A stretch of DNA of 64,000 nt. Origin: an uncultured virus (IMG/VR IMGVR_UViG_3300015244_001911). Lineage: Duplodnaviria; Heunggongvirae; Uroviricota; Caudoviricetes. This document shows positions 1 to 36,753 of this stretch, piece by piece. Positions within the stretch are counted from its first letter, which is position 1. Every line of letters begins with the position of its first letter. Made by a program: the position numbers and the translations under genes. Location: positions 1 through 64,000 of IMG/VR virus record IMGVR_UViG_3300015244_001911; one strand, written 5' to 3'. The notes under the pieces were generated by a model. The model had not been told where the DNA came from and did no database searches. It saw only the letters and a program-made list of their open reading frames with translations.

Positions 1-816
1 AACAACGGATCTTCTGGAACATCGGGAGTTAATGGATCTCCAGGAAACAATGGTAACAACGGATCTTCTGGATCAGCAGGATCATCAGGAACAAGAGGAT
101 CTTCTGGAACATCGGGAGTTAATGGATCTCCAGGAAACAATGGTAACAACGGATCTTCTGGATCAGCAGGATCATCAGGAACAAGAGGATCTTCTGGAAC
201 ATCGGGAGTTAATGGATCTCCAGGAAACAATGGTAACAACGGATCTTCTGGAACATCAGGAACATCATTTAGTGTCACCGCTACCACTACCAATTCAACG
301 TTCTATCCTGTTTTCGTTCTTGGTACTGGTGTACAGACACCTAATATTAGAACGACAGCGTCGGCACTCCGATTTAACGCTTCCACCTCCGAATTAGCCG
401 CAGGTAGTTTAGTAAGTGACGGGGATGTTTATGCAGTAAGATCTCTAGGGGTTGGTATGGGTCCATCGGCTGTAACCGGACAAATAGATGCAGCAGCTGA
501 TATTATTGCATTCTCTACATCGGACATCAGATTAAAGGATGGAATTAGTCCAATAGAGAACAGTTTAGAAAAACTTTCAGCCATCTCGGGGGTCAATTAT
601 AAATGGAAGCCGGAGTTCAATGATATCCACGGGTACAAAGATAAACAAGATGTCGGAGTTATCGCTCAGGAGGTATTAAGTATTCTACCCGAAGCTGTTA
701 GACAAAACGCAACTGGATACTACTCGGTTAGATACGAAAGAATAATTCCTTTGCTAATTGAAGCAATCAAGGAGCAACAAAAACAAATAGATGAACTAAA
801 ATCTAAATTAAAGTAA
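1..816 (+). CDS. Collagen-like (G-X-Y, Ser/Asn/Thr-rich) tail fibre with C-terminal intramolecular chaperone (peptidase S74); 5' end outside window
   Basis: Frame 1 is open from base 1 (NNGSSGTSGVNGSPGNNGNNGSSGSAG...) through the 457..816 ORF, which has the S74 pattern SDIRLKD...GVIAQEV...VRYERIIPLLIEAIKEQQKQI. Confidence 0.85.
   Translation, partial: NNGSSGTSGVNGSPGNNGNNGSSGSAGSSGTRGSSGTSGVNGSPGNNGNNGSSGSAGSSGTRGSSGTSGVNGSPGNNGNNGSSGTSGTSFSVTATTTNSTFYPVFVLGTGVQTPNIRTTASALRFNASTSELAAGSLVSDGDVYAVRSLGVGMGPSAVTGQIDAAADIIAFSTSDIRLKDGISPIENSLEKLSAISGVNYKWKPEFNDIHGYKDKQDVGVIAQEVLSILPEAVRQNATGYYSVRYERIIPLLIEAIKEQQKQIDELKSKLK
7..252 (+). repeat. Perfect 90-bp tandem repeat (about 2.7 copies) encoding 30-aa G-X-Y units
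   Basis: Units start at 7, 97 and 187; identity runs to 252. Confidence 0.95.
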
Positions 817-817
817 A

Positions 818-1348
818 ATGGGATTCGTAGTAAACAAAGAAATAACAACAGATAATGGCAGAGCCTTTTCCAGTTTTTACGTGAGAATAGACAGTTATAT
901 TATTAATAAGATCACCGGATTTCTGGCTGTTAGTGCGGGACATTATTCAGATAAAGAAGCTGCAGCTCAGTCGTATGTGGAGGATGGAATAAATTCCAGT
1001 GGCAGAATAAGCTATAATATATCGTATGACGATATCTTGAATTCACAGTTTTCACACGTAAGAAGATATCCGCTGACTGAAACAGTAACAGTTCCGATAC
1101 AAGTTAGAAAATCTGACTGGTCACATGAGTTGATAGAGTATATCGACTTCGACGAGAATGGAAATGAGGTAGTAAAAGAAAGACGCGAATGGACTGAAAT
1201 TGTCACGTATGAAACTGAGAATCAGACGAGAACCAGGATAAATATAGATCTTGTAAATGATAACGTGTATCAATATGCATATAATCGATTAATAGAGGAA
1301 TATGGGGATATATTCGGAAGCGCAAATATTATAAACGAAACGATTTAA
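818..1348 (+). CDS. Hypothetical protein (tail-fibre-associated by position)
   Basis: 176-aa ORF starting right after the fibre stop. Confidence 0.6.
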   Translation: MGFVVNKEITTDNGRAFSSFYVRIDSYIINKITGFLAVSAGHYSDKEAAAQSYVEDGINSSGRISYNISYDDILNSQFSHVRRYPLTETVTVPIQVRKSDWSHELIEYIDFDENGNEVVKERREWTEIVTYETENQTRTRINIDLVNDNVYQYAYNRLIEEYGDIFGSANIINETI

Positions 1349-1350
1349 CT

Positions 1351-1824
1351 ATGGGTGTATTATATCTTCCATCTGCTACCGACATTAATGTCCCTACATA
1401 TTTTACAGCATTAATAGGTGTTTCCTCCTCTGATGTTAGTTTTAAAAATGTACTTGAAGACACTGATCCACAAATCAATCTCACTACCAATCTTGCACTT
1501 AACTATTATACCGGTATAGCTGGTGGGTATGCCCTTTTTAACTTAGCGATAAAATCCAGTAACGGGTCACGAGGTTATGTTGAGGTTACTTATCCATGGT
1601 CGCAGCAATCGACAGGTGTCACCACCATCGGTAACACTAAACAGGCGTACGAGTATTATGGTAGTACTATAGATATAAATGCAATTGGAATATACCCCTT
1701 TACTTTTTCCTATTGGTATGAATCTAGTTCTGCTACCTTTTACTACACCAGCAATTTATCATTTTCCGCGTTAAGTGGGGAAACACAGGATCCTTTTGCT
1801 TTATTTACTGCTTATTTTGCATAA
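1351..1824 (+). CDS. Hypothetical protein, Ser/Thr/Tyr-rich, possibly virion-associated
   Basis: 157-aa ORF; composition and operon position. Confidence 0.55.
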   Translation: MGVLYLPSATDINVPTYFTALIGVSSSDVSFKNVLEDTDPQINLTTNLALNYYTGIAGGYALFNLAIKSSNGSRGYVEVTYPWSQQSTGVTTIGNTKQAYEYYGSTIDINAIGIYPFTFSYWYESSSATFYYTSNLSFSALSGETQDPFALFTAYFA

Positions 1825-1862
1825 AATTATAAACCAAATTAGTAACCATTAAATGCTTAAAT

Positions 1863-2750
1863 ATGGAAACCCTATGGGTATTAGAGAATGTAAAAAAAGA
1901 CCTTAGTTTTTATAGCAGACTGCAAATATGGCTGCTAGTGGCTTCGGTGTCACTATGGAGAAAATATCATCCCCATCACAAAACTGTCTTTTATGCTGAT
2001 GATATTACACTAGAGCATCTCAAAAATTTTAATATTTTTCACCTATGGCATGATGTTAGACCTCTTTGTTATCCGGAGAAGATTAATAGGGAGATATTTT
2101 GGTCCTCTCCGAAGACTAAAATTATATCCGAAACTGAAATACCATTATTGCTGGTTGATCATGATTTTTTAATCTTTCGTAGTATCGACGAGCATCTCGC
2201 GGATAAACTCATTTATAGTTATGATGAAAGAGCAGATAACTGGTACCCCCCCGAGAATGATGTTTATAATGGTAGATTAACAACACCAATTACCAGAATC
2301 AATGACTTAGCAGCTAATGTGAGCTTTTTTTATTTGCCTGATCCCAAATTTTCCAGGAAATATGGTAGACAGGTTCTTAAAAATCATGAGGAGTTTACCG
2401 CTATGAATTCTCCTTATGTAACTACGAATCACATGATATTATCGGAGCAGCTGATGCTAAAACAGTGGCTATGTTCGGAGAGCATACCGCATCAATGTCT
2501 ATCTAAAAACATTTGGGATTGCAAGAAGGCTGACTTTTATGATGTATTGGCTGAATCTGGAATTTGGGATCTTAAAGAAACACGAAGATCATATAAGCAC
2601 TATGGGGTAGAGGAAATGAGAATTAGAGAACATCGGACGGGTTATAACTATAATGAAACCATCGAATTTTTAAAAAGGTGCGTTACTGCAGGTAAGCTCA
2701 TGGATGTTACTGAATTAGAGAACAATATCAATACCATATTAAACGCATGA
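1863..2750 (+). CDS. DUF6734-like putative GT-A-fold transferase
   Basis: FYAD, FWSSPK and LLVDHD (DxD) motifs; resembles the next gene. Confidence 0.55.
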   Translation: METLWVLENVKKDLSFYSRLQIWLLVASVSLWRKYHPHHKTVFYADDITLEHLKNFNIFHLWHDVRPLCYPEKINREIFWSSPKTKIISETEIPLLLVDHDFLIFRSIDEHLADKLIYSYDERADNWYPPENDVYNGRLTTPITRINDLAANVSFFYLPDPKFSRKYGRQVLKNHEEFTAMNSPYVTTNHMILSEQLMLKQWLCSESIPHQCLSKNIWDCKKADFYDVLAESGIWDLKETRRSYKHYGVEEMRIREHRTGYNYNETIEFLKRCVTAGKLMDVTELENNINTILNA

Positions 2751-3736
2751 GAGCAATACACGTAAATTGGACCAAGCCATTCTTTCATAGAGACCGTTTA
2801 AGAGGTCATGGATTTAACACAACCAGAGAATTAAAATCTGAGACCTATGATCAGCCGGACTATCAGATATTATACACCATGCTTTCTGCTATCCACTGGA
2901 AACGATTAAACGGCCCAATTAAGCTTTACACTGATTCTGTTGGCTTAGCATTTTATCAGCAATTCAGAATACCTGAACTTTATGACGGGATCGATATTAA
3001 TTTTTTAAATGGTTATTCCAAGACAGATGTAGATCCTGCACATTTTTGGACCAGCGGAAAAATAAAATGTTTAGCTAACCAGACATCTCCATTCGTTTTC
3101 CTTGATGAGGATATGATCATCAGAAGTAAGCTTCCTGATAGCATATTAAAATCGGATTTAACAGTTACACACTGGGAAATACCTCGGGGCTATTATTATT
3201 TTAGTGAGGATGATTGGAAAAAAGACATCTCGCATATAGAATTCCCTGAGGGATACCAATGTTTAGACTGGTCACCAAACACATCATTTCTAGTTTTTAA
3301 TAATCTAAAGATATTAAGGGAGTATCACGATTGGCATAGAAAGCTAGTGGATACTAACGGTGCGGATACTCCCGAATGGTTTTGGCTTTTAACTGACCAG
3401 GGAATACTTGGACATATCATTAGGCAGGGAGATTATAAAACCAATACTTTAACCGATAAGATATATTTGGCCGATAGTAACTATGGAAACGAATCTACCA
3501 GATACAAGGGTCAGGCTGAAAATTGGTATTATCCGATGAATCCCGATTATACCAAAGAGAACATAAGTTGGGAACACGTCTGGATAGATAAGATTCATTA
3601 CGGATGGCTTCCTGATTATAAAGAAAAACAGACACAGAGGTTCTTCGAGGAACTTATATTTTTAGGGTATTCCGAATATCTACAACATGCAAGATTTGCA
3701 AAATACTGGAATGAATACAGAAGTAAAAATAGTTAG
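2747..3736 (+). CDS. DUF6734-like putative GT-A-fold transferase
   Basis: LYTD, FWTSGKIK and PFVFLDED (DxD) motifs; ATGA overlap with the previous gene. Confidence 0.6.
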   Translation: MRAIHVNWTKPFFHRDRLRGHGFNTTRELKSETYDQPDYQILYTMLSAIHWKRLNGPIKLYTDSVGLAFYQQFRIPELYDGIDINFLNGYSKTDVDPAHFWTSGKIKCLANQTSPFVFLDEDMIIRSKLPDSILKSDLTVTHWEIPRGYYYFSEDDWKKDISHIEFPEGYQCLDWSPNTSFLVFNNLKILREYHDWHRKLVDTNGADTPEWFWLLTDQGILGHIIRQGDYKTNTLTDKIYLADSNYGNESTRYKGQAENWYYPMNPDYTKENISWEHVWIDKIHYGWLPDYKEKQTQRFFEELIFLGYSEYLQHARFAKYWNEYRSKNS

Positions 3737-4478
3737 AGCATACTGGGGTGAAAGTGATAAACTTAGAGAAGAAATCCCTCCTGTCCCAATCTATACAAAT
3801 CAGATAGTTTTTGTTTGGGGTTCGACAAATGAGTCTTTTTTAAGATCCAGAGGATTCGATACTTTTTTAATGTCTGATGATATACCCGAATCTTATCTTT
3901 CATATAATGGACAGTTCTATCGGAAATTGTTAGCACTTGATATGGCACTAAGTATGTTTGACGAGGTGATTCTTCTGGATTGGGATTGTTATATATTAAG
4001 AGAATTTGATGACGATTTCTATGAATTTCTTAGAGAAAAACCAATTCAATGTCCATTATACGGTCAATATGAAAAAATAGATGAGTCATGGAGAGAAGCA
4101 CTACAACCGGAGAATTCTAACAGAGAGGAATGGTATTCAATATGCAACGATACCTTTCCCAAATACACATGGAAACTTGGAACAACATTAGTAAGTCCAA
4201 ATTTCTGCTTTGTTTATAGTAGAGACCGGTCCTTGGGTAAGAAACTGATTGACATAGCAAATAAGCACGGATTGTCCGGATGCATAGAGGAGCACGCAAT
4301 GTATCTGTATGCTAATTGCTCTCTTGATGATTACATAAAGAAATACCAGCCGAGATTTTTATATGGTGTTTCTAATGATGAATCAGGGAGCGACTTTTTA
4401 GTAAATAAATCGAAGAAGCTAGTAAATGAATATCTGGAGAATTCTATTAAAATGACACATTATCTTAAACACATATAA
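3711..4478 (+). CDS. Putative DxD glycosyltransferase-like protein (paralog A)
   Basis: RAYWG, RKLLAL and ILLDWDC motifs; start moved to 3711 to match paralog B. Confidence 0.55.
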   Translation: MNTEVKIVRAYWGESDKLREEIPPVPIYTNQIVFVWGSTNESFLRSRGFDTFLMSDDIPESYLSYNGQFYRKLLALDMALSMFDEVILLDWDCYILREFDDDFYEFLREKPIQCPLYGQYEKIDESWREALQPENSNREEWYSICNDTFPKYTWKLGTTLVSPNFCFVYSRDRSLGKKLIDIANKHGLSGCIEEHAMYLYANCSLDDYIKKYQPRFLYGVSNDESGSDFLVNKSKKLVNEYLENSIKMTHYLKHI

Positions 4479-5242
4479 TGAAATCCGATATAAAAATAAT
4501 CAGAGCATACTGGGGGGATTCGAAAAAGCTCCGAGATGAAATACCTCCCTTTCCGATATATGACAATCAGATTGTATATGTATGGGGCGAGAATAATGAT
4601 AAATTTTTAAGAGATAGAGGATTCGAAACCAGGATAGTAGCCGAGGAAGATCCTTGTAAAATAGACCATAAAAATTCATTGATCAGAAAACTTATAGCTA
4701 TAAAAATGTCGTTGGAGGAATTCCACGAGATAATGTTCATAGATTGGGATTGCTACATATTGAGAGAGCTGGATGACTCATTTTATAAGTACATCTCAGA
4801 TAAACCCACTCAGATACCTCTGTATGCACACCTTAGTAATCCTATTGATGGTATAGAGGAGTTTTACGTTAATCGTGAAACCGAGCATGTTGAATTTAAG
4901 AATGAAACGAATAAGTATATTCTGAAATACAGCTGGAAATGTGATGATATGTGCATTCTACCCAACTTTGGATTTTTTTATAGTAGAGAAATCCACATAG
5001 GAAGGGAGCTTCTCCGGATAGCTTTAGAGAATGATCTTAAAGGATGTGCTGACGAGGCCGCGATGTTCATATATGCTAATTGCGATCTCACAGAGTATAT
5101 AGAAAGATATCATCCAAATTTCGTTAACGGGGTTTCCGATATCATGACATCAACAAATTTTAAAATATCAGAAATACAGAAAAGATTCAATAATAGGATT
5201 AAGGATATTCTAAATATGGATCTATATCTGGAACACATGTAA
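4478..5242 (+). CDS. Putative DxD glycosyltransferase-like protein (paralog B)
   Basis: RAYWG, RKLIAI and MFIDWDC motifs; colinear with paralog A. Confidence 0.55.
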   Translation: MKSDIKIIRAYWGDSKKLRDEIPPFPIYDNQIVYVWGENNDKFLRDRGFETRIVAEEDPCKIDHKNSLIRKLIAIKMSLEEFHEIMFIDWDCYILRELDDSFYKYISDKPTQIPLYAHLSNPIDGIEEFYVNRETEHVEFKNETNKYILKYSWKCDDMCILPNFGFFYSREIHIGRELLRIALENDLKGCADEAAMFIYANCDLTEYIERYHPNFVNGVSDIMTSTNFKISEIQKRFNNRIKDILNMDLYLEHM

Positions 5243-5246
5243 ATAT

Positions 5247-6281
5247 ATGAAAGCATACTGCAGTTTACCATTTGATAGAATGAAAATAGATTCTGACGGG
5301 TCTTACCAATCTTGCTGTCACCAAACAACTTACTATGGCAACATTTTAACAGATAATACAACGATAGAAGAGGCCTTTAAGGGGAAAACATTGGTTTCGG
5401 TAAAGAACTCCGTAATGGGCTCTAAAATGCATCCTGGCTGCAACAACACTAAGTGTCCGCTATACTTCACATCATTAGAAAGAAATGTTGATGTTGCTCT
5501 GTCGAAATATCCTAAACAAATTGAACTTTCCCTGCCCTCCTCGTGGTGTAATATCGGTGGTTTGAACCCAACCCCTGACACTGCATGTATAATGTGTCCA
5601 AGATCTAGCGAAAGCTACATCACAAATTTTGTTAATTTGCCAGATAATACTAATCTGTTACTTGACATTATAAAACCCGCAATTCCACATCTGGAAACAT
5701 TCACACTCTTGGGAATAGCTGAGCCTTTTTACAAAGGAAGATTGTTTGAAGTTTTTGATAGAATAGAATTTAAAAAATATAAGGACACGATATTATTCTG
5801 GACTTTTTGCAATGGATCTTTATTTGGAGAAAAATATCAGGACATGTTCGTTGATGAATATACTAGCAAATCATGCATAGGATTTTCTATTGATGCTGCA
5901 ACACCGGAGACCTATATAAAGATAAGAAGACTTGATTACTATGCAACTATACAGAAAAATCTGGAAAGATATTTTAACAAGGTGAATAATTTGGGCTATA
6001 AAAGAGATTGGTCATTTACAGCATATAATATCAATATGTTGAACCTTCATGAAATGGAAGATATGCTCAGATTCGGAAACAATATAGGGTCTAATAAAGT
6101 ACAATATACATTAACTTACGTCAGCGATCCTGGAATGAAAATTGACAGAAGATTATTATGTAATGATAAAAACTGGAATCTGTTTTGGGAAAAACAGCAA
6201 AGAATAGAACAATTAGCCGCTGAATTGAACCAGAAAGTTGAGTTTTATGTCCCGTTCCATGGCGGATATTTAAAAGAATAG
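5247..6281 (+). CDS. Radical SAM protein with N-terminal SPASM/twitch-like domain
   Basis: N-terminal CSLPF...DG...CC...YGNI...C; core CX12CX2C, GIAEPF, NGS and SIDAATPETY..IR motifs. Confidence 0.75.
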   Translation: MKAYCSLPFDRMKIDSDGSYQSCCHQTTYYGNILTDNTTIEEAFKGKTLVSVKNSVMGSKMHPGCNNTKCPLYFTSLERNVDVALSKYPKQIELSLPSSWCNIGGLNPTPDTACIMCPRSSESYITNFVNLPDNTNLLLDIIKPAIPHLETFTLLGIAEPFYKGRLFEVFDRIEFKKYKDTILFWTFCNGSLFGEKYQDMFVDEYTSKSCIGFSIDAATPETYIKIRRLDYYATIQKNLERYFNKVNNLGYKRDWSFTAYNINMLNLHEMEDMLRFGNNIGSNKVQYTLTYVSDPGMKIDRRLLCNDKNWNLFWEKQQRIEQLAAELNQKVEFYVPFHGGYLKE

Positions 6282-6283
6282 GT

Positions 6284-6991
6284 ATGATATTTAAAAAACC
6301 ACTAATACCAACGGAGGACCAATATGTTTTTCAGCTAGCTCCTATACCTTTATATCAAAGGATTTACGACGATAAGATCTCAGATATAGCTTACGATCTG
6401 GGCAAAAGAATCTTAACTGATAAACAGAAGTTAATGGGGCAGGAGCTACCTAACTTATATGATTCAGACCGTCAATCTAATTACGAGATAAATTACGAAA
6501 GACATGATGAATGGGTAGAAGACCACGAATTTCCTCCCATAGGAAGTCGTTTTTGGAGTCCACCTAACGACTTTTTAGATACTGATAACGAAACAGTAAA
6601 AACGATAAGAAGAAGAATATTTAATGGATTTTATCACCTATTAAAATCGCTGGGTATTGAAAAGGATGGTGAAGCTACTATAACGGAGAGTTGGCTTCAA
6701 TACTATGATCCATATTCAGGAAGAGGTCATAATGCTCATAATCATTGTCGTTGGAATCACGGGGAAGTTAAACCAATAATGTTTTCGGGAGGATACTATC
6801 TCTGTGACGGTGATCCGGTATCGGATCATCCCTATAGCGGTGTTTTCTCTTTCCATGTTCGTGGTATGAAATATTACATAAGACCAAAAAAAGGAATGTT
6901 AATGATATGGCCATATGATATAATCCATTCAGTTGAACCCTTCTATGGTAGTAAGGAAAGAGCAGTTATAAACTTTAATATACAAATATAG
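6284..6991 (+). CDS. Putative 2OG-Fe(II) oxygenase (TIGR02466-like)
   Basis: HNAHNH, FSGGYY, WP...HSVEPF and RAVINFN motifs. Confidence 0.75.
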   Translation: MIFKKPLIPTEDQYVFQLAPIPLYQRIYDDKISDIAYDLGKRILTDKQKLMGQELPNLYDSDRQSNYEINYERHDEWVEDHEFPPIGSRFWSPPNDFLDTDNETVKTIRRRIFNGFYHLLKSLGIEKDGEATITESWLQYYDPYSGRGHNAHNHCRWNHGEVKPIMFSGGYYLCDGDPVSDHPYSGVFSFHVRGMKYYIRPKKGMLMIWPYDIIHSVEPFYGSKERAVINFNIQI

Positions 6992-6994
6992 CAT

Positions 6995-7582
6995 ATGAAC
7001 TTCAATCAACCGTACAACGACCCTCAGAATTACTATTGGTTCCAGCACGGATTCAGTAAGGAGGAGCTTGATAAAATCTATAACGATGTTACAGAACTCC
7101 CTTTCGATCCCGCAACAATTGACACCGGAAATTCTCTTGATGAGAATAAACAAATAAGGAGTTCTTCCATAAAATGGATACCGAAGAATGAAAAGTGGAA
7201 TTGGTTGTATGAAAAATTAATGTCACAAGCTACAGGAGCTAACAATGCACTATGGAATTTTAATCTAGTGTCCGCTCCCGAGCTTATTCAATATACGGAA
7301 TATTATGCAACCGAGGGAGGTCATTATGACTGGCATCAGGACATAGGTGCGGGTGGAGCAAGCCATCGCAAAGTTTCTATAACAGTTCAGTTATCTGACC
7401 CTGATGAGTATGATGGCGGAGACCTTGAATTATGGCAAGGTGCAACTTCTATACAAAAAGCTCATAGAGGAGCTGGTGTTGTTTTTGTATTCCCAAGTTA
7501 TATGATGCATAGAGTCACCAAAGTTACCCGAGGTGTTAGAAGAAGCTTCGTTTTATGGGTTGGAGGATGTACTTATAAATAA
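6995..7582 (+). CDS. 2OG-Fe(II) oxygenase, prolyl-4-hydroxylase/PKHD-like
   Basis: YDWHQD, RKVSITVQLS..EYDGGDL and FPSYMMHRVTKVTRGVRRS motifs. Confidence 0.85.
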   Translation: MNFNQPYNDPQNYYWFQHGFSKEELDKIYNDVTELPFDPATIDTGNSLDENKQIRSSSIKWIPKNEKWNWLYEKLMSQATGANNALWNFNLVSAPELIQYTEYYATEGGHYDWHQDIGAGGASHRKVSITVQLSDPDEYDGGDLELWQGATSIQKAHRGAGVVFVFPSYMMHRVTKVTRGVRRSFVLWVGGCTYK

Positions 7583-7592
7583 ATGGTTTTTT

Positions 7593-7620
7593 GAAACTAT
7601 TGGACATAAAACAACTAAAA
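7593..7620 (+). promoter_or_regulatory. Putative ECF-type middle promoter GAAAC-N17-CTAAAA
   Basis: One of 8 mostly intergenic copies with a 17-nt spacer. Confidence 0.65.
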
Positions 7621-7636
7621 ATAGTAAATTTTAAAT

Positions 7637-7909
7637 ATGAGCGAACAAATTAAATTGCCAGAGGAACTTCTATTAGAAATTCAGGCATTAAAGGATGAAT
7701 TAACCGAGAATGTTATTAGAATCGGAAGATTAAATGTACAGAAATCTTTTTACGAGAAGGACCTTAGAATGTTAGACCTAGAACTTGATGCACTTTATGG
7801 CCAAGCGGAGGTTATTTCTAAGAAAGAGGATGATCTTCAGATAAAGGTTGTCGGCCAATATGGTAGCGGGAAATTAGATTTCGAGAGCGGTATTTTTTCA
7901 AAGGAGTAA
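7637..7909 (+). CDS. Small coiled-coil hypothetical protein
   Basis: 90-aa ORF with heptad pattern. Confidence 0.6.
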   Translation: MSEQIKLPEELLLEIQALKDELTENVIRIGRLNVQKSFYEKDLRMLDLELDALYGQAEVISKKEDDLQIKVVGQYGSGKLDFESGIFSKE

Positions 7910-7915
7910 TTTTTC

Positions 7916-8896
7916 GTGATGGTATCTGAGCACAACCAAGAGATTCCTAGAATCTTATACGTCTCCCCACACCTTTCCACTGGTGGTCTCCCTCAGTATC
8001 TTTGGAAGAAAATAGAATCTTTCAATGATGTTGCAGAGGTTTACTGTGTGGAATACAGTTATTTGGGAGATGCTTATGTTGTCCAGAGAAATAGAATATC
8101 TAATCTACTTGGCGAAAGGTTCATACCTATATTTAATGATGCCAATCGATTACTGGAGATTATATCTGATATAAATCCAGATATTGTGCACTTTGAGGAA
8201 TTCTGCGAAAGTTTTGTTGATGATGCTGTTTTACAAAAGATTTTTTCTGATGATAGAAAATATCTAATATGTGAAACATGTCACAGTTCTGTCACATCGG
8301 TTCAGAGCAAAATCTATCGTCCCGATAGATTTGTCATGGTTTCTAAATGGATAGACCAGAAGTTTAGCAATCTGGGTGTACCCTCCGAGATATTGGAATA
8401 TCCGATAGAAGATTTAATACCAAATAAATCCAAGACCATGGAGTTGCTTGGTATGGACCCGAATTACAAGCATATAGTAAATATTGGACTTTTTACCCCT
8501 GGAAAAAATCAGGGTGAAATTTTTGAATATGCTAATGAAACATTAAAAAGGGATCTACCAATTAGATATCATTTTATTGGAAACACCGCTGATAATTTTA
8601 AGGATTATTGGGGTCCTTTATTAGAGAACAAACCAGATAATTGTTATATCTGGGGAGAAAGAAATGATGTTGATCTTTTCTATCAGGCTGCGGATCTTTT
8701 TTTGTTTACCTCCAACTTCGAATTAAACCCACTTTCGATAAAAGAAGCTTTATCGTGGAAAATTCCTTCGGTTTTTAAAAGATTGGATACTTATCTGGAC
8801 ACTTATGATGATATGGAGAATGTATTTTATATTACTAACAACAGGGAGTCTAATCTTTCTTTAATACTAAATATACTAAATCCAGAATGGAAATAA
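7916..8896 (+). CDS. Glycosyltransferase, GT-B fold (GT4-like)
   Basis: PHLSTGGLPQY, IGLFTPGKNQ and ADLFLFTS..ELNPLSIKEAL motifs. Confidence 0.85.
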   Translation: MMVSEHNQEIPRILYVSPHLSTGGLPQYLWKKIESFNDVAEVYCVEYSYLGDAYVVQRNRISNLLGERFIPIFNDANRLLEIISDINPDIVHFEEFCESFVDDAVLQKIFSDDRKYLICETCHSSVTSVQSKIYRPDRFVMVSKWIDQKFSNLGVPSEILEYPIEDLIPNKSKTMELLGMDPNYKHIVNIGLFTPGKNQGEIFEYANETLKRDLPIRYHFIGNTADNFKDYWGPLLENKPDNCYIWGERNDVDLFYQAADLFLFTSNFELNPLSIKEALSWKIPSVFKRLDTYLDTYDDMENVFYITNNRESNLSLILNILNPEWK

Positions 8897-10092
8897 GCAA
8901 AAATTCTATATCGGTTTATTCAGGAATAAACAAAGCTGGTTCAATGTACATCGAATCAAATGTTGAACCCAAGGTTCATATGTGGTTTGATTATTACCCT
9001 AAGATATCCGTTTCCGGTAAAAATATCGAGGGAGGATCTAATAGATTTACGACCATTATAAGAGATGGGTCTGATATCATCTACACGGCAGAAATTCACA
9101 CTGGAATGTTTTCTAATGCTTTTAAAAGAGGAGTATTTGATTGTACGATGGAAGCATACGATGAGAAGGGGATTTTAGTTGATCGATTCTCCATGCTGGA
9201 GTATTTTAAATCTGGAAAGGTTTGTGTTTCTATCGATAGTGCATCTTTGGGTGATAATATAGCTTGGGTACCTTACATAGAGGAGTTTAGGAAAAAATAC
9301 GAAATTCAAAATCTAATAGTTACCACTTTTTATAACGATCTTTTTGATGGCCAATATGAGAATATCACATTCAGACCTCCTGGGTACAGAGAGGATGGTA
9401 TGTCTGTCATTATTGGTGTTGGGTGGTACCAGGAGGAAGATAGGAATATGCATAAGATCGATCCGAGAACAATACCTTTGCAAAAGGTAAGTAGTGACAT
9501 TCTCGATGTTGAGTACTCCGGCGAAATTAGACCACTAATTAATAAAAAAATAAATCCAAGACCCACTAATAAGAAATACGTTTGCATTGCAACCGAATCC
9601 ACTGCAGGTGCTAAATATTGGCACTATCCTGGTGGGTGGCAAAGATTAGTAAATCTGTTAAAAAGTGTTGGTTATGAGGTGGTACTTATCCAAAAAGAAG
9701 CCAATTCACTGAACGGTGTTTTGGATCTAAGCGGGGATATTCCAATTGGGGACAGAGTAAGTGACCTACTTCAATGCGAGTTTTTCATCGGATTAAGCTC
9801 CGGATTATCATGGCTTTCGTGGGCTTTAGGAGTACCAACAGTCGTTATCTCTGGATTTACTGATCCTTTTCTTGAATTCTCTGACAGATGTCTTCGTATT
9901 ATAAATCGTGATGTTTGCCATGGATGCTTTACTAAAACCGAGTATAAATTCGATAGAGGAGATTGGTGGTGGTGTCCGGTTCACAAGGGAACCGATAGAT
10001 ATTTTGAATGTACGAAAACAATAAAGCCCGAAGACGTCTTTATTTCTATATTGGATTGGATCGAATCCGATTATACAAAGGGATCCAACTAA
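8887..10092 (+). CDS. Aah/TibC-type (autotransporter strand-loop-strand) protein O-heptosyltransferase, GT9-related
   Basis: SLGDNIAW catalytic segment, KKYVCIATEST..AKYW..PGGW, FFIGLSSGLSWLSWA, ISGFT and four-Cys iron finger CHGC...CP...C. Confidence 0.8.
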   Translation: MEISKNSISVYSGINKAGSMYIESNVEPKVHMWFDYYPKISVSGKNIEGGSNRFTTIIRDGSDIIYTAEIHTGMFSNAFKRGVFDCTMEAYDEKGILVDRFSMLEYFKSGKVCVSIDSASLGDNIAWVPYIEEFRKKYEIQNLIVTTFYNDLFDGQYENITFRPPGYREDGMSVIIGVGWYQEEDRNMHKIDPRTIPLQKVSSDILDVEYSGEIRPLINKKINPRPTNKKYVCIATESTAGAKYWHYPGGWQRLVNLLKSVGYEVVLIQKEANSLNGVLDLSGDIPIGDRVSDLLQCEFFIGLSSGLSWLSWALGVPTVVISGFTDPFLEFSDRCLRIINRDVCHGCFTKTEYKFDRGDWWWCPVHKGTDRYFECTKTIKPEDVFISILDWIESDYTKGSN

Positions 10093-18717: not shown

Positions 18718-19272
18718 ATGGCAGGATTATCACATTTTCAAAATTCACTTTCAGGAATAAACAAATTCGAACCTGTTTATCTGAACCAGTTTGAGGTAAC
18801 AATTATACCTCCTGGTGCTGTAGCTGGTGGTGAAATAATGCTTCAGCACGTAAGTAAAGTTAGTGGACTTTCACTCGATAAAAATCCAGGTATAACTAGT
18901 CAGAAGTATAAATTTGCTAAAAGAAACTATGCTGGTGCTAAACCTGAAACCACCTATATGGACGTTAGTTTAAGTTTCAGCGTCAATTTAAATGATGCTA
19001 ATTCGATGTATGTCTTTAAAACACTAAGACAATGGTCGGATCTTATCTATAATCCATTAACGGGTGCAATGGGGCTTAAAAATGATTATACCGGTACTAT
19101 CGTTATCTCTATATTCAATAAACAAGGAGACGTTTTCAGAAGAATAACCTGTAAAGATTGTTTTCCTACTAAGCCAATCTCTCCAATGAATTTAAGTTAT
19201 CTTTCGACTGATCTATATAAGATAGATGATATGACTTGGGCGGTTGATTACTGGGAAGATTTATTCTTATAA
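18718..19272 (+). CDS. gp19: Tail tube protein 1 (gp19-like)
   Basis: Follows the sheath; FEPVYLNQFEV...WSDLIYNPLTGAMG...DYWED. Confidence 0.8.
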   Translation: MAGLSHFQNSLSGINKFEPVYLNQFEVTIIPPGAVAGGEIMLQHVSKVSGLSLDKNPGITSQKYKFAKRNYAGAKPETTYMDVSLSFSVNLNDANSMYVFKTLRQWSDLIYNPLTGAMGLKNDYTGTIVISIFNKQGDVFRRITCKDCFPTKPISPMNLSYLSTDLYKIDDMTWAVDYWEDLFL

Positions 19273-19286
19273 AATAAAAAATAGAA

Positions 19287-19862
19287 ATGGCAGGATTACC
19301 ACATTTTACAAATTCTAAAGCGGGAATAAACTACTTCGAACCTGTTTATTTAAACCAGTTTGAGGTTTTAATAAATCCTCCATCTGGGATTGTTGCTGCA
19401 TCAACCACCTTTAAAGGTGAAAGTATATTGGCACAGCAGGTTAAATCAATAAGTGGATTAACAGTTGACATCGCTCCAGCACAAACTATTAACCAGCAGT
19501 ACAAGTTTGCTACAAGAAGATATGCTGGAGGTGAGCCTTCCCAGAGTGATATGACTTTAACTATGGAATTCGAGGTCAACTTAAATGATGCTAATTCCAT
19601 GTCGGTTTACAAGATTCTTAGACAGTGGTCAGATTTGATCTATAATCCACTAACTGGGGCAATGGGCATAAAATCTGATTATGTGGGATCTATGTCTATA
19701 TCAATATTCAACAAAAGAGGGGATGTTTTCAGACGAATAAGAATACCTTCTTGCTTCCTAAGTGAAGCTATAAATGCGATGGATCTTGATTATGAGCAGT
19801 CAACAATCTATAGTGTAACGACTAGCTGGGTATGTGATTATTGGGAAGATCTATTCCTTTAA
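19287..19862 (+). CDS. gp19: Tail tube protein 2 (gp19-like paralog)
   Basis: Colinear paralog of the previous gene. Confidence 0.8.
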   Translation: MAGLPHFTNSKAGINYFEPVYLNQFEVLINPPSGIVAASTTFKGESILAQQVKSISGLTVDIAPAQTINQQYKFATRRYAGGEPSQSDMTLTMEFEVNLNDANSMSVYKILRQWSDLIYNPLTGAMGIKSDYVGSMSISIFNKRGDVFRRIRIPSCFLSEAINAMDLDYEQSTIYSVTTSWVCDYWEDLFL

Positions 19863-32518: not shown

Positions 32519-34129
32519 ATGGCTGGTTTTGTAGACAATAATAACCCATCTCAGACTCCTGTTGTACAGAGGATAAGGGATTCTGTGAGAAGGATTAGCA
32601 CTTTCGGAATGAAGTACGACGACATGGTTATTAGAAATTCCCAGGCAGTTGGGATAACCGAAGCGGCTTTTTTAAACAAAAATAAATCCAATGTCGAGGA
32701 TGAGAGTATGTTATGGACTCTTGCCAAACAGGACATCTCTACTAGACAGTTTATTGGATACTTCGACAAGGACTATAAGGGTAAACGTGACTTCCTGAGG
32801 AAGTTTTCACTTAATCCGGAAATTGAATGGGTGCTCGATACCGTGTGCGATGAGGCAATTTCTTATGACCCCTCCAACTTTTTTGCATATCCGGATTTTA
32901 TAGATCTTAGCGATATAAATGAAAAACTCAAGGATGATCTATATGAGACCTATAAAAGACTATATGATACCTGGGGATTCTCTGATGATATAACTGCTTG
33001 GCAATATTTCAGACAGTTTATTATTGATGGATTTTTAGCATTTGAGATCATCTATGATGATAAGGGCCAAAATATCATAGGATTTAAAGAACTGGATGCC
33101 GTTACACTTGTACCTAGTGTAGAAAAGCAGATAGATGGATCTTTTGTTAATACGTGGACACAATATCCGCAGGATCCCAAGAGAAAAAGAGTTCTTTACG
33201 ATCCTCAGATCATATACATATCATATGCTAAGGGTAATGCTATCTCAAGAATAAGTTATATTGAGAGATTAATCAGGCCTTATAACATCCTTAGGATAAT
33301 GGAGTACACCAGAGTTATCTGGTCAGTAATGAATGCTTCATTTAAATTAAAGATGACAGTTCCTATTGGATCAAAATCACCTCAAAAAGGTATGCAGACC
33401 CTTGGTGAGTTAATGAGCATCTATAAGGAGGATATTGAGCTTAATGACGAGAGCGGGGAGTTAACTATAGATGGTAGGCCAAAAATACAGTTCTATAAGA
33501 ATTATCTAATGCCTTCCGGTGTTAACGGTACTCCAACCATAGAGCCTTTAAACACTGAGGGACCAAATTTAAATGATCCACAGCCTCTAGCATACTTCTT
33601 CGATAAGTTCATATTGGAATCTAAGGTACCTCCTTCCAGATTTCATAATCCTGATGGTGGAAGTACATCACCTTATTCTAACGGAGCTGAGGGATTGGAC
33701 AAGGAGGAGATTAGATTCGCCAAGTTTATATCAAGACTTAGATCAACATTCCAGGAGATTATGGTTAAGCCACTTTGGATACAAATGGTTAAAAAATATC
33801 CTAAGCTTGAAGAGGATTTCTTGTTCAAGAGTCAATTGGGGCTTAATTATTTTTCTGATAATCCATTTAAGTTAAATCAAGAGATGGATATGATGAATAA
33901 GAAAAAAGAAGCCATCACAGCAATGGGAGGATTGGTTGGTGATGAGGATAAACCATATTTCTCTAATGCTTTCCTTATTGAAACCTTCCTGGGTATGTCC
34001 AAACAGGATATAGATGCAAACAAGGAAGCGATGGAGAGAAAAGAGAAAGAGAAGAAAAAAGCCGAAGAAAAAGGCGGTGAGGAAGAGAAAAAAGAGGGTG
34101 AAGAGGAAGCACCAGCAGTAACACTATAA
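32519..34129 (+). CDS. gp20: Portal protein 1 (gp20-like)
   Basis: PEIEWVLDTVCDEAI, IDG, SYIERLIRPYNILRIME, KVPPSRF and EEIRFAKFI motifs; late promoter at 32451. Confidence 0.88.
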   Translation: MAGFVDNNNPSQTPVVQRIRDSVRRISTFGMKYDDMVIRNSQAVGITEAAFLNKNKSNVEDESMLWTLAKQDISTRQFIGYFDKDYKGKRDFLRKFSLNPEIEWVLDTVCDEAISYDPSNFFAYPDFIDLSDINEKLKDDLYETYKRLYDTWGFSDDITAWQYFRQFIIDGFLAFEIIYDDKGQNIIGFKELDAVTLVPSVEKQIDGSFVNTWTQYPQDPKRKRVLYDPQIIYISYAKGNAISRISYIERLIRPYNILRIMEYTRVIWSVMNASFKLKMTVPIGSKSPQKGMQTLGELMSIYKEDIELNDESGELTIDGRPKIQFYKNYLMPSGVNGTPTIEPLNTEGPNLNDPQPLAYFFDKFILESKVPPSRFHNPDGGSTSPYSNGAEGLDKEEIRFAKFISRLRSTFQEIMVKPLWIQMVKKYPKLEEDFLFKSQLGLNYFSDNPFKLNQEMDMMNKKKEAITAMGGLVGDEDKPYFSNAFLIETFLGMSKQDIDANKEAMERKEKEKKKAEEKGGEEEKKEGEEEAPAVTL

Positions 34130-34133
34130 TAAA

Positions 34134-35756
34134 ATGGCAGGATTTTTAGATTATTTAAAACCCAATCAATCTGCTCTAGGTAACATTCTAAAAAACCTAG
34201 GCAACATATCAAAATTTGGTATGCAGTATGATGATATGGTTGTGAGAAATTCTCAAGCCATTGGTAAGACTGAGGGATATTTTTTCAATCAGGACGGTAC
34301 TGGTTTCACCCAAAATGATGCCTTTTATTGGACTGCTTCGTATCAGGACACTAAGGTAAGAAAATATATCGCTTACTTTGATAGGGATTATATCGAGAAA
34401 AGAAATTACCTTAGAAAATTTTCTCTTAACGGAGAGATTGAATTTATTATCGATACAGTTACCGATGAGTCAATAACTTATGATGATAGAAACTACTTCG
34501 CACAACCATCTTTTATAAATCTGGATCTTAAGGATAAGATTAAAGATGAGATGTCAACCAATTATAATAGGCTCTATAACGTATTCGGATTTCAGAATAG
34601 TGTACTAGCTTGGCAGTACTTTAAGCAATTCTTGATTGATGGATTTCTAGCTTTTGAAATTATCTATGATAACAAGGGTAAGGAAGTTATAGGATTTAAG
34701 GAATTAGACCCATCATCTCTTCAGCCCGTTGTTGAAAAAGTCGGTGAAAATGAATATAAACAATTCTGGATCCAGTACCCGCAGAATCCTCAAATGAGCA
34801 GGAAGCTTACAAATGAGCAGGTTATTTATATTTCATATGCTAAGGGTAATAGCGTTTCTAGAGTTAGTTATATCGAAAGACTAGTTAGATCTTATAACAT
34901 TTTAAGAATCATGGAAAATTCCAGAGTTATCTGGAATGTGATGAACGCTTCATATAGGCTTAAATTTATTATTCCGATTGGTAGTCAGTCACCTCAGAAA
35001 GCAATGCAAACACTCGGACAACTGATGTCGAATTACAAGGAGGATATTTCAATCAATGATGCTTCGGGTGAATTAACAATTAACGGTAGACCGAAGGTTC
35101 AATTTTATAAAAATTACCTGTTTCCTGAAAAGGATGGGCAATCACCAACTATCGAGTCTCTAAACCCAAGCGGTCCTGATTTTAATGTTATGGAGAATGT
35201 TTTATACTTCTTTAATAAACTTAAGATGGATTCAAAAATTCCTTATGCTAGATTTGCTTCCAAAAACGGAACACCAGCAAACTATCAGATTTCTATAGAT
35301 CAGTTAGAAAGGGACGAAATTAGATTTGAAAAGTTCCTTAGAAGGCTAAGATCAATATTCCAGGAAATACTCGTTAAACCACTTTATTTACAAATGTGTC
35401 TGGATCATCCGGAGCTATCTAGAGATAAAAGCTTTAAAGCAAATATCGGACTTAATTACTATCGTGATAGCGAATTTGAGGAGATGGTGGAGATGTCGGG
35501 CTTTACAAAAAGAAGCGAATTCATAAAAGGACTAGGCGAACTTAAAGTAAAAGCTGGCGAGGAAGAAAAAGCATATTTTGATAACGACTTCCTAATACAG
35601 AGATATCTGGGTATGAATCCTGATCAGATTAAAATGAATCAGAAGTACAAGGAAAAAGAAGCTAAAGCAGCAGAGAAAACTAAAGGCGGAGCGGAAGGTG
35701 AAGCCGGCGGAGAGGAAGCAGCAGGAGAAGAGGAAGCACCAGCAGTAACATTATAA
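34134..35756 (+). CDS. gp20: Portal protein 2 (gp20-like paralog)
   Basis: Full-length colinear paralog with KIPYARF and DEIRFEKFL. Confidence 0.88.
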   Translation: MAGFLDYLKPNQSALGNILKNLGNISKFGMQYDDMVVRNSQAIGKTEGYFFNQDGTGFTQNDAFYWTASYQDTKVRKYIAYFDRDYIEKRNYLRKFSLNGEIEFIIDTVTDESITYDDRNYFAQPSFINLDLKDKIKDEMSTNYNRLYNVFGFQNSVLAWQYFKQFLIDGFLAFEIIYDNKGKEVIGFKELDPSSLQPVVEKVGENEYKQFWIQYPQNPQMSRKLTNEQVIYISYAKGNSVSRVSYIERLVRSYNILRIMENSRVIWNVMNASYRLKFIIPIGSQSPQKAMQTLGQLMSNYKEDISINDASGELTINGRPKVQFYKNYLFPEKDGQSPTIESLNPSGPDFNVMENVLYFFNKLKMDSKIPYARFASKNGTPANYQISIDQLERDEIRFEKFLRRLRSIFQEILVKPLYLQMCLDHPELSRDKSFKANIGLNYYRDSEFEEMVEMSGFTKRSEFIKGLGELKVKAGEEEKAYFDNDFLIQRYLGMNPDQIKMNQKYKEKEAKAAEKTKGGAEGEAGGEEAAGEEEAPAVTL

Positions 35757-35775: not shown

Positions 35776-36753
35776 ATGGAATTGGATCTACTTAAAAAAT
35801 TTTCTCGCAGTAAAATATTAATCGTCGGGGATGTTATGCTGGACCATTATGTGATGGGTTCAGTGACAAGAATTTCTCCGGAAGCACCAGTTCCTGTTCT
35901 TCTGAAAGAATCTGAACATTATTATCTGGGTGGAGCAGGAAATGTTTTTTCCAATATACATTCATTGGGTGGTAATGGTGATATTCTAACCGTTACTGGA
36001 AATGATTCAAACGGAGACCTAGTAAAAAACATGATAAAGGAAAAATCCTCCCTAAGTATCCTAGTTAAAACCGACAAGAGAAGAACCACTATTAAATCAA
36101 GATATCTTGGAAATTCGCATCAGCTTCTCAGAGTTGATGACGAAGATTGTGATGATATCGACAAGGAGACAGAGGATTATTTTATAGATCTGCTTGAATC
36201 TACTATTGAATTTTATGAGTGCGTTATTATCGAAGATTATAATAAAGGATTAATGACTCCCAGAATTATAAGAAGAACGATAGAACTTTGCAATGCTAAA
36301 AACAAACCAGTTATAGTTGATCCCAAAGTAAAGAATATAGATTTTTATAAAGGATGCACCGTACTTAAACCGAACTTCTCCGAATTTTGCACTATTGCGG
36401 GAAAGAAAATGTCTGCATCTGATTTTGATCAAATAACGGAGGAAGCCAGAAAAATTCTGGACAGTATGGAAATAAAGGGTATTCTGGTGACTCTTTCTGA
36501 TAAGGGCATGCTATATGTTACCCGATACGAATCTTATCACAGCCCAGGGTATCCAATAAACGTTTCTGATGTTTCCGGTGCCGGTGACACAGTAACAGCT
36601 ATGTTCTCTCTTTGTATATCATCTGGAGTTGATATCAAAAAGGCATTAAAGCTATGTAACATAGCAGGATCTATTGCCTGCTCACTAGTTGGAGCTGTCT
36701 CAGTTAGTCTTAACGAGATCACGGAGAGCAAATATTTCAGATCTAACCCATAG
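35776..36753 (+). CDS. rfaE1: D-glycero-D-manno-heptose-7-phosphate kinase (RfaE/HldE domain I, PfkB family)
   Basis: GDVMLDHY, RISPEAPVPV, GGAGNV, DYNKG, VDPK and DVSGAGDT motifs. Confidence 0.92.
   Translation: MELDLLKKFSRSKILIVGDVMLDHYVMGSVTRISPEAPVPVLLKESEHYYLGGAGNVFSNIHSLGGNGDILTVTGNDSNGDLVKNMIKEKSSLSILVKTDKRRTTIKSRYLGNSHQLLRVDDEDCDDIDKETEDYFIDLLESTIEFYECVIIEDYNKGLMTPRIIRRTIELCNAKNKPVIVDPKVKNIDFYKGCTVLKPNFSEFCTIAGKKMSASDFDQITEEARKILDSMEIKGILVTLSDKGMLYVTRYESYHSPGYPINVSDVSGAGDTVTAMFSLCISSGVDIKKALKLCNIAGSIACSLVGAVSVSLNEITESKYFRSNP

What the first reader, a model, noticed from the sequence alone, without database searches (positions are those of the whole stretch)
1..10092. Candidate phage-encoded virion heptosylation/glycosylation system
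Seen: between the tail fibre and the neck/terminase genes lie four DxD proteins, a radical SAM enzyme, two 2OG-Fe(II) oxygenases, a GT4 and a protein with SLGD plus the four-Cys iron finger. A heptose-7-P kinase sits at 35776. Known: Aah/TibC-family enzymes transfer heptose from ADP-heptose to Ser residues of bacterial autotransporters, and RfaE/HldE makes the donor. Inference: the phage supplies part of the donor pathway and the transferase, modifies its own Ser/Thr-rich structural proteins, and extends or tailors the glycan. This could serve as a shield, in receptor binding, or for fibre stability. I know of no characterised phage protein-heptosylation system.
Basis: partly seen in the sequence, partly recalled or inferred. 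Interest (0 to 1): 0.85.

Follow-up and report, generated by a model that had tools for sequence, protein, structure and literature searches.

The report
Phage TibC-like enzyme beside serine fibres
A large uncultured phage carries a true relative of the bacterial enzyme that coats adhesins with heptose sugar, plus part of the heptose supply line, and comparison across phages and bacteria suggests it sugar-coats the phage's own serine-rich collagen-like fibres, though no sugar has been observed.

Summary
Observation largely confirmed. 8887..10092 is a genuine Aah/TibC (BAHT) relative: above the TIGR04414 cut-off, predicted fold TM 0.81 to TibC versus 0.41-0.50 to WaaC/WaaF, catalytic Asp, donor-binding residues and four-Cys finger kept. 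It lacks the thumb hairpin that builds TibC's ring and has no autotransporter. Its likely acceptor is Gly-(Ser/Thr)-Ser tracts: 39 of 45 enzyme-bearing viral records carry them; 14 of 45 tract-bearing versus 0 of 42 Gly-Pro-Thr-collagen records carry the enzyme; in bacteria, 15 of 25 non-classical relatives versus 0 of 57 classical BAHTs neighbour such tracts. For heptose: the kinase at 35776 and a GmhA-like gene in a 99.99%-identical record occur in 4 of 7 near-complete enzyme-bearing lineage genomes and 0 of 2 lacking it; GmhB and adenylyltransferase were not found, so the host must finish the donor. The DxD, radical-SAM and 2OG genes are a swappable cassette of unproven function, not core. 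No experiment exists; DNA or host-surface targets are less likely. Our scan noted the same enzyme-plus-repeat pairing in at least 20 other genomes; I found no paper. New variant of a known kind.

The parts
1..816 (+). C-terminal end of a tail fibre: Gly-X-Y tract (13 of 29 triplets end in Ser) and Peptidase_S74 chaperone; proposed acceptor; cut by the contig start
818..1348 (+). unknown protein, travels with this fibre cassette (76% in G091)
1351..1824 (+). unknown protein, travels with this fibre cassette (64% in G091)
1863..2750 (+). DUF6734-like DxD protein, putative GT-A glycosyltransferase; accessory, unproven
2747..3736 (+). DUF6734 protein with invariant D120, D122, H277; putative GT-A glycosyltransferase; accessory, unproven
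3687..4478 (+). DWD-motif protein of an unnamed viral family; only sub-threshold hints of GT-A families; accessory
4478..5242 (+). paralogue of 3687..4478 (42% identical); accessory
5247..6281 (+). twitch/SPASM radical-SAM-like protein with a C-x12-C-x2-C motif; accessory
6284..6991 (+). 2OG-Fe(II) oxygenase (2OG-FeII_Oxy_5, phrog_81); accessory
6995..7582 (+). 2OG-Fe(II) oxygenase (PKHD-like, phrog_61); accessory
7916..8896 (+). GT4 glycosyltransferase; usual partner (fused in 12, adjacent in 23, nearby in 10, not found in 15 of 60 phage enzyme groups); probably extends the first sugar
8887..10092 (+). Aah/TibC (BAHT)-family glycosyltransferase without the beta-hairpin thumb; core enzyme
35776..36753 (+). 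stand-alone HldE/RfaE-I type heptose-7-phosphate kinase, between portal and DNA ligase; donor supply

Best explanation
During infection the phage boosts the first two steps of the host's ADP-heptose pathway with its own GmhA-like isomerase and heptose-7-phosphate kinase (genes shown; flux inferred); host GmhB and adenylyltransferase finish the donor (inferred). The TibC-like enzyme 8887..10092 (family and fold shown) uses Asp123 to activate serine hydroxyls and transfers heptose onto the Ser of Gly-(Ser/Thr)-Ser triplets in the phage's own fibres in the cytoplasm (inferred from co-occurrence). Having no thumb hairpin (shown), it probably works as a small iron-finger oligomer on an extended chain, not as TibC's ring around a beta-helix (inferred). 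The GT4 extends the first sugar and a swappable cassette (here DxD, radical SAM, 2OG; elsewhere GT2, GT9, methyl- or sulfotransferases) diversifies the glycan (weakly inferred). Most likely purpose: a dense glycan that stabilises and shields a proline-poor collagen-like stalk and varies its surface.
For: TIGR04414 above cut-off; model pLDDT 89, Foldseek top hit TibC, E 5e-32, TM 0.81. TibC D110, T226, K230, R286, W305 and C339/342/358/370 (PMC4358343) align to D123, T239, K243, R290, W309, C344/347/363/375; the Asp, Lys, Trp and four Cys are invariant in 59 of 59 phage groups. Tracts in 39 of 45 enzyme-bearing records, 8 of 8 at least 90% complete. Enzyme in 14 of 45 tract-bearing versus 0 of 42 Gly-Pro-Thr records; 12 of 21 versus 0 of 11 for records of 50 kb or more. 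Within the lineage, slot-covering records: tracts 7 of 11 versus 0 of 6, kinase 6 of 11 versus 0 of 6; G154 has a Gly-Pro-Thr fibre in the same slot and no enzyme. Bacteria: 15 of 25 non-classical versus 0 of 57 classical rows neighbour a tract. Y position is 68% Ser and 5% Thr while X is 39% Thr and 38% Ser, matching TibC's use of Ser and not Thr. 51 of 81 sampled genomes of the likely host phylum have the adenylyltransferase above cut-off.
Against: No adduct, activity or virion data. In TibC, thumb mutants are inactive dimers, so a thumbless enzyme must work differently. R286 is kept in only 37 of 59 phage groups and the stereoselectivity position is Gly in 35 of 59, so donors may vary in the family. 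A full-length kinase is in only 14 of 56 enzyme-bearing records and 1 of 12 near-complete ones, GmhA in 3 of 56; G094, G134 and G138 have enzyme and tracts without either. GmhB 0 of 5 in two searches, no clear adenylyltransferase in the lineage. Kinase and GmhA lie among replication genes, far from the cluster. 31 of 45 tract-bearing records show no enzyme, most being fragments, but 2 of 6 near-complete ones too. Some enzyme-adjacent fibres are GAQ/GTN-rich. Records are related, so the Fisher p values overstate independence; the six enzyme-free lineage records are about three clades. Host is unknown.
Confidence: 0.62

Rival explanations
1. Same acceptor, other sugar: the enzyme glycosylates the Gly-X-Ser tracts but with another nucleotide sugar; the kinase and GmhA serve something else.
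For: Most enzyme-bearing phages lack kinase and GmhA; R286 and position 300 vary in the phage branch; identity to TibC is only about 29-35%.
Against: The window's own enzyme keeps all five donor/catalytic residues and has Ser at position 300, as AAH does; kinase and GmhA appear only in enzyme-bearing near-complete lineage genomes (4 of 7 versus 0 of 2); 5 of 5 bacteria with the enzyme-plus-tract pair have the adenylyltransferase above cut-off (weak, since such bacteria usually make heptose LPS).
Confidence: 0.16
2. The enzyme modifies another virion protein (capsid, neck, sheath, fibre tip) or a small molecule; the link to the tracts is hitch-hiking in an exchanged fibre module.
For: The slot is a recombination cassette; some neighbouring fibres are Ser-poor; mycobacteriophage glycans sit on capsid and tail tube (as cited in PMC12619734).
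Against: The pairing holds in bacterial chromosomes with no phage genes, where the tracts are tails of small lipoproteins, across opposite strands and at a distance in phages.
Confidence: 0.09
3. The genes alter the host surface (LPS core or host glycoproteins) or drain ADP-heptose for superinfection exclusion.
For: GT4, GT9, GT2 and GT25 neighbours resemble LPS enzymes; a huge-phage paper reads a heptosyltransferase as an LPS auxiliary gene (PMC10747093); the kinase is of a type common in the likely host phylum (52 of 81).
Against: WaaC model 18 bits against a cut-off of 185; TM 0.41-0.50 to WaaC/WaaF; position inside the late structural block; absence wherever the tract fibre is absent.
Confidence: 0.09
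4. DNA hypermodification: the heptose genes and DxD/2OG genes glycosylate phage DNA, as in the 5-heptosyl-methylcytosine pathway of Pyle et al.
For: Phage DNA heptosylation is shown in bioRxiv 10.1101/2023.12.21.572611. The lineage has a second thymidylate-synthase-like gene with a DUF6734 gene a few kb away. Kinase and GmhA lie in replication modules.
Against: That pathway uses a T4-BGT-like transferase, a C5-methylase and a TET-like oxygenase; C5-methylase 0 of 5 with a ringing control; TET and BGT 0 of 5 but with silent controls. The second ThyS-like gene is also in G131, which lacks enzyme, kinase and GmhA. This rival remains open for the DUF6734 genes, hardly for 8887..10092.
Confidence: 0.04

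Closest known systems
TibC-TibA and AAH-AIDA-I, bacterial autotransporter heptosyltransferases (BAHT; TIGR04414; PDB 4RAP/4RB4; PMC4358343)
   Same: Fold (TM 0.81), N-terminal beta-barrel, catalytic Asp, ADP-heptose-binding residues, four-Cys finger, gene next to a repetitive Ser/Gly-rich surface protein.
   Different: No beta-hairpin thumb (9 residues shorter), so the dodecamer is unlikely; no autotransporter or AIDA repeats; neighbour is a Gly-X-Ser fibre; lies outside the 57-row classical clade; comes with GT4 and tailoring genes and a phage copy of donor enzymes.
Mycobacteriophage virion glycosylation (Freeman et al. 2023; seen only as cited in PMC12619734)
   Same: Phage-encoded glycosyltransferases decorate virion proteins; shield function proposed.
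   Different: There capsid and tail-tube C-termini are modified; no BAHT enzyme, heptose or repeat tract is named in the passage I saw.
Phage DNA heptosylation, contig 53 of Pyle et al. (bioRxiv 10.1101/2023.12.21.572611)
   Same: A phage uses heptose and encodes part of a heptose donor route.
   Different: Acceptor is 5-hydroxymethylcytosine; transferase is T4-BGT-like; needs C5-methylase and oxygenase, the methylase not found here.
Prophage collagen-like side-tail proteins EPclA/B of E. coli O157 (PMC3368898)
   Same: Gly-X-Y trimeric phage fibres.
   Different: Those are Pro/charge-rich and recombinant EPclA was not glycosylated; these tracts are Ser/Thr-rich and Pro-poor. The paper names Thr glycosylation as another route to collagen stability.
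LPS heptosyltransferases WaaC/WaaF (GT9)
   Same: GT-B fold, ADP-heptose donor.
   Different: Far weaker match (18 bits; TM 0.41-0.50); no barrel or iron finger; lipid acceptor.

Membership tests
BAHT (Aah/TibC) | TIGR04414 above curated cut-off | tested here: met
   236.7 bits versus 200
BAHT (Aah/TibC) | N-terminal beta-barrel plus GT-B-like catalytic domain | tested here: met
   Model pLDDT 89; Foldseek TibC E 5e-32, TM 0.81
BAHT (Aah/TibC) | Catalytic Asp110 and donor residues Thr226, Lys230, Arg286, Trp305 | tested here: met
   D123, T239, K243, R290, W309
BAHT (Aah/TibC) | Four-Cys iron finger | tested here: met
   C344, C347, C363, C375; invariant in 59 of 59 phage groups; metal identity not testable
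BAHT (Aah/TibC) | Beta-hairpin thumb that builds the dodecamer | tested here: not met
   9-residue deletion; span 16 versus 24-25 in the 57 classical rows; no hairpin in the model
BAHT (Aah/TibC) | Partner autotransporter with AIDA-type beta-helix repeats | tested here: not met
   None among the ORFs of the 72 kb record that I read or scanned; neighbour is a Gly-X-Ser fibre; the record is a fragment
BAHT (Aah/TibC) | Heptose transfer from ADP-heptose to Ser; oligomeric state | not testable with these tools
   Needs assay
LPS heptosyltransferase WaaC/WaaF | Best sequence and structure match | tested here: not met
   TIGR02193 18.3 bits versus 185.3; TM 0.41-0.50
HldE/RfaE-I heptose-7-phosphate kinase | TIGR02198 above cut-off | tested here: inconclusive
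   324 versus 345 bits, next unrelated family 72; three Bacteroidota-labelled genomes score 294-331; best PDB match 4E84
Complete ADP-heptose pathway | GmhA isomerase | tested here: inconclusive
   Not in the window; in G088 and G090 at 236 and 234 bits, cut-off 265, best family
Complete ADP-heptose pathway | GmhB phosphatase and heptose-1-phosphate adenylyltransferase | tested here: not met
   GmhB 0 of 5; TIGR02199 over cut-off in 1 of 56 records (G040, another phage), 56 bits in G090
Radical SAM | CxxxCxxC motif (motif recalled) | tested here: not met
   C101-x12-C114-x2-C117; NF033640 50 bits versus 170
GT-A glycosyltransferases (four DxD proteins) | Conserved DxD motif | tested here: met
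   Invariant in 53 of 53 and 57 of 57 rows
GT-A glycosyltransferases (four DxD proteins) | GT-A fold or family match | tested here: inconclusive
   No PDB match; sub-threshold Mannosyl_trans3 in 14 of 53 and DUF273 in 6 of 53; Glyco_transf_8 on 20% of one atlas cluster; no model obtained
Phage 5mC glycosylation (Pyle et al.) | C5 cytosine methylase | tested here: not met
   0 of 5 lineage records, control rings in 9 of 14
Phage 5mC glycosylation (Pyle et al.) | TET/JBP oxygenase and T4-BGT-like transferase | tested here: inconclusive
   0 of 5 each, controls silent
Collagen-like phage fibre | Uninterrupted Gly-X-Y run with a fibre chaperone domain | tested here: met
   29 triplets, Collagen 57 bits, Peptidase_S74
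Collagen-like phage fibre | Triple helix | not testable with these tools
   The bacterial tract proteins look like single tails, so a helix is not implied by the repeat

The most novel reading that the evidence does not exclude
The non-classical BAHT branch is a widespread, so far undescribed protein O-heptosylation system whose recognition signal is the bare Gly-(Ser/Thr)-Ser triplet. Large aquatic phages use it to build a second kind of collagen, in which hundreds of heptosylated serines replace proline as the stabiliser of fibres hundreds of triplets long, top up the host's ADP-heptose supply for it, and swap tailoring cassettes to vary the glycan like a serotype; bacteria use the same enzyme on lipoprotein tails.
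Probability: 0.3. Interest if true: 0.88.

Novelty: new variant of a known kind. Interest (0 to 1): 0.7.

Why it matters
BAHT enzymes are described only as ring-shaped partners of bacterial autotransporters. A thumbless branch with thousands of members (4334 clusters) acting on a simple triplet repeat would be a new acceptor class, a case of phage protein heptosylation for which I found no paper, and an explanation of why Pro-poor Gly-Ser-Ser fibres exist. It is directly testable with one gene and one short repeat in laboratory E. coli, and an isolate carries the pair (Microcystis phage Mel-JY01, where the repeat gene is annotated on the wrong strand). A compact Ser-heptosyltransferase with a portable tag would also be a glyco-engineering tool.

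Full report
Context. The window is the first 64 kb of a 72 kb virus record. It is a T4-like head-tail region: neck, terminase, sheath, two tube-like genes, two portal paralogues and a major capsid protein. The capsid protein is 45% identical to Lak phages and 32-37% to phages of Tenacibaculum, Flavobacterium and PAU, so a Bacteroidota host is likely but not shown. The 80 best of 200 IMG/VR relatives are 71-100% identical; near-complete ones are 250-434 kb. Record G088 is 99.995% identical to the window over 19.9 kb and extends the view to 127 kb.

The observation. The ORFs are as described (see observation check). Two qualifications: the radical-SAM-like protein has C-x12-C-x2-C and scores far below cut-off; the four DxD proteins are two families (DUF6734-like: 1863, 2747; an unnamed DWD family: 3687, 4478) whose motifs are invariant but whose fold I could not establish.

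The core enzyme. 8887..10092 passes TIGR04414 (236.7 versus 200 bits); its only significant PDB sequence matches are TibC (E 2e-50). From PMC4358343 (abstract, passages and part 3 of 10 of the main text): Asp110 is the base; Thr226, Lys230, Arg286 and Trp305 bind the donor; four Cys bind iron; residue 300 sets the stereoisomer (Ser in AAH accepts both); the thumb builds the dodecamer and thumb mutants are inactive dimers; Ser, not Thr, is modified. The phage protein has D123, T239, K243, R290, S304, W309 and all four Cys, but a 9-residue deletion removes the thumb. In 59 phage groups (80% identity) the Asp, Lys, Trp and four Cys are invariant, Arg is kept in 37; the thumb span is 15-16 residues in 36 and a different insert in the rest. 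A quick maximum-likelihood tree of 141 domains puts AAH, the Citrobacter enzyme and 55 other cellular rows in one clade (SH-aLRT 99) with a 24-25 residue span; all 59 phage rows and 25 cellular rows lie outside it (midpoint root, no bootstrap). So it works like a BAHT but fails two defining features (thumb, autotransporter): a sister branch. Databases already label such proteins automatically.

The acceptor. (a) Of 45 enzyme-bearing records (44 contigs of about 40 kb or more picked from the 85 viral loci, near-copies dropped by hand, plus Mel-JY01), 39 hold three Gly-(S/T)-(S/T)-type triplets in a row, 8 of 8 near-complete; the six misses are 7-27% complete; the reversed pattern gave 0 (the pattern also admits Arg, Cys, Trp). 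For records of 50 kb or more: 12 of 21 versus 0 of 11. (c) Within the lineage, of 40 records searched 17 cover the slot in front of the neck gene: 11 carry the enzyme (two only as the distant paralogue), 6 do not; a strict four-triplet pattern is in 7 of 11 versus 0 of 6. Of the four misses, two end before the fibre, G140 has 190 GTS triplets that the strict pattern misses, and G162 has a GAQ/GTN fibre. G154 has a Gly-Pro-Thr fibre in that slot and no enzyme; the complete genomes G131 and G135 lack both. G143 has GST/GAT tracts and no enzyme but does not reach the slot. (d) Bacteria: 15 of 25 non-classical versus 0 of 57 classical rows have such a tract within 8 kb (14 of 18 versus 0 of 48 for loci of 8 kb or more). 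At least five of the 25 look like phage contigs inside bins, but in marine Gammaproteobacteria, Methylococcales, a Burkholderiaceae bin and a Bdellovibrionota bin the enzyme sits among housekeeping genes, flanked by small secreted or lipid-anchored proteins with GSS/GTS tails. That is independent of phage linkage and shows that the tract, not the fibre, is the common element. (e) In Gly-X-Y runs near 40 enzyme groups, Y is Ser 68% and Thr 5% while X is Thr 39% and Ser 38%; in 71 control loci Y is Ser 4% (the controls were chosen for Thr at Y). Related genomes are not independent, so p values (3e-10 to 0.035) are only indicative. G088 encodes a second tract protein with at least 76 triplets, 37 ending in Ser.

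The donor. The kinase (324 bits) scores like its counterparts in three Bacteroidota-labelled genomes (294-331). G088 and G090 carry a GmhA-like gene. Among nine near-complete lineage genomes, kinase plus GmhA are in G090, G132, G140 and G141 (all with the enzyme; the last two are near-copies), absent from G094, G134 and G138 (with enzyme) and from G131 and G135 (without); in slot-covering records the kinase is 6 of 11 versus 0 of 6. Six further kinase-bearing fragments do not reach the slot. GmhB was not found (0 of 5 twice), nor a convincing adenylyltransferase or HldD. In 81 genomes of the likely host phylum 52 have the kinase homologue (33-40% identity) and 51 the adenylyltransferase above cut-off, so a host can finish the donor. 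Against generality: only 1 of 12 near-complete enzyme-bearing phages of the wider set has a full-length kinase. The phage therefore supplements, not replaces, host ADP-heptose.

Accessory genes. A GT4 homologue is fused (12), adjacent (23), nearby (10) or not found (15) in 60 groups, and absent from the genuine bacterial loci, so the minimal system is enzyme plus tract. The slot between fibre and GT4 holds interchangeable sets: here DxD, radical SAM, 2OG (81-94% identical for the DxD and radical SAM genes in G091, whose transferase is only 64% identical); elsewhere GT2 pairs with DUF6445, sulfotransferase with APS kinase, GT9, GT25, FkbM methylases. Glycan tailoring is the simplest reading but is not shown; DUF6734 also occurs near a second thymidylate-synthase-like gene in enzyme-free G131, so it may act on DNA.

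Mechanism and rivals. Most likely (0.62): cytoplasmic O-heptosylation of tract serines on the phage's fibres, extended by GT4. Purpose is inferred: PMC3368898 (passages) attributes the stability of prophage collagens to Pro and charged residues and names Thr glycosylation as another route; these tracts have neither Pro nor charge. That Peptidase_S74 chaperones trimeric fibres is recalled knowledge. Rivals: other sugar (0.16), other virion acceptor (0.09), host surface (0.09), DNA (0.04; phage DNA heptosylation is real, bioRxiv 10.1101/2023.12.21.572611, passages and section 7, but its C5-methylase is 0 of 5 here).

Novelty. Eight searches for phage BAHT, phage protein heptosylation or Mel-JY01 gave no relevant paper (listings only, plus passages of PMC10747093, which reads such a gene as an LPS enzyme). 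Virion glycosylation as such is known (Freeman et al., seen only as cited in PMC12619734, passages and part of section 11). The scan's own notes hold 23 findings on the same pairing in at least 20 other genomes; I saw them after my co-occurrence tests and they are not independent support. What this window adds is a stand-alone thumbless enzyme, the donor genes and natural negative controls within one lineage. Verdict: real feature, new variant of a known kind, experimentally untested, interest 0.70.

Noticed in passing
L509-L515, L552, L528, L534, L542, L521 (bacterial genome loci): Non-classical BAHT genes flanked by small secreted or lipid-anchored proteins ending in GSS/GTS tracts and often an acidic tail; in L510 a DUF6502 gene precedes the enzyme. 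Looks like an undescribed bacterial O-glycosylation module.
   Followed up: partly
L608:15391-19667 (G090), L609 (G132), L507 (G134): A second, divergent GT4/FkbM plus TibC-like gene pair far from the structural block, present beside the main copy in G090 and G132, as sole copy found in G134, G136, G138, absent in G140 and G131.
   Followed up: partly
L608:7748-8539 and 4074-4997 (G090); equivalents in G132, G140, G131: Second thymidylate-synthase-like gene (with an intein in G131) near a DUF6734 gene; the lineage may carry a modified DNA base.
   Followed up: partly
window 5247-6281: Radical-SAM-like protein with C-x12-C-x2-C and an N-terminal twitch/SPASM domain; 93% identical copy in G091.
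   Followed up: partly
window 32519-35756 and 18718-19862: Tandem paralogues of the T4-like portal gene and of a tail-tube-like gene, conserved in relatives.
   Followed up: no
L007:2-3052 (Microcystis phage Mel-JY01, PP395634.1): The GTS/GSS repeat gene (about 200 triplets) is annotated as two hypothetical proteins on the opposite strand; the TibC-like domain is hidden in a gene labelled FkbM methyltransferase.
   Followed up: yes
L500, L505, L506 (G140, G134, G138): Sulfotransferase, APS kinase and a cytidylyltransferase-like gene directly behind the Gly-X-Ser fibre: possible sulfation of a virion glycan.
   Followed up: partly
L613:1339-2148 (end of G088): A second tract protein of this phage, at least 76 triplets, cut by the contig end; many contigs of the lineage break inside these repeats.
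   Followed up: yes
window 42331-43233, 44048-44863, 56864-58279: By eye from the translations: UV-endonuclease-like, nucleotidyltransferase-like and asparagine-synthase-like genes; labels recalled, not tested.
   Followed up: no
window 67695 onwards in G000 (outside the window): A 768-residue ORF with about a dozen proline-rich 18-residue repeats in the baseplate region.
   Followed up: no
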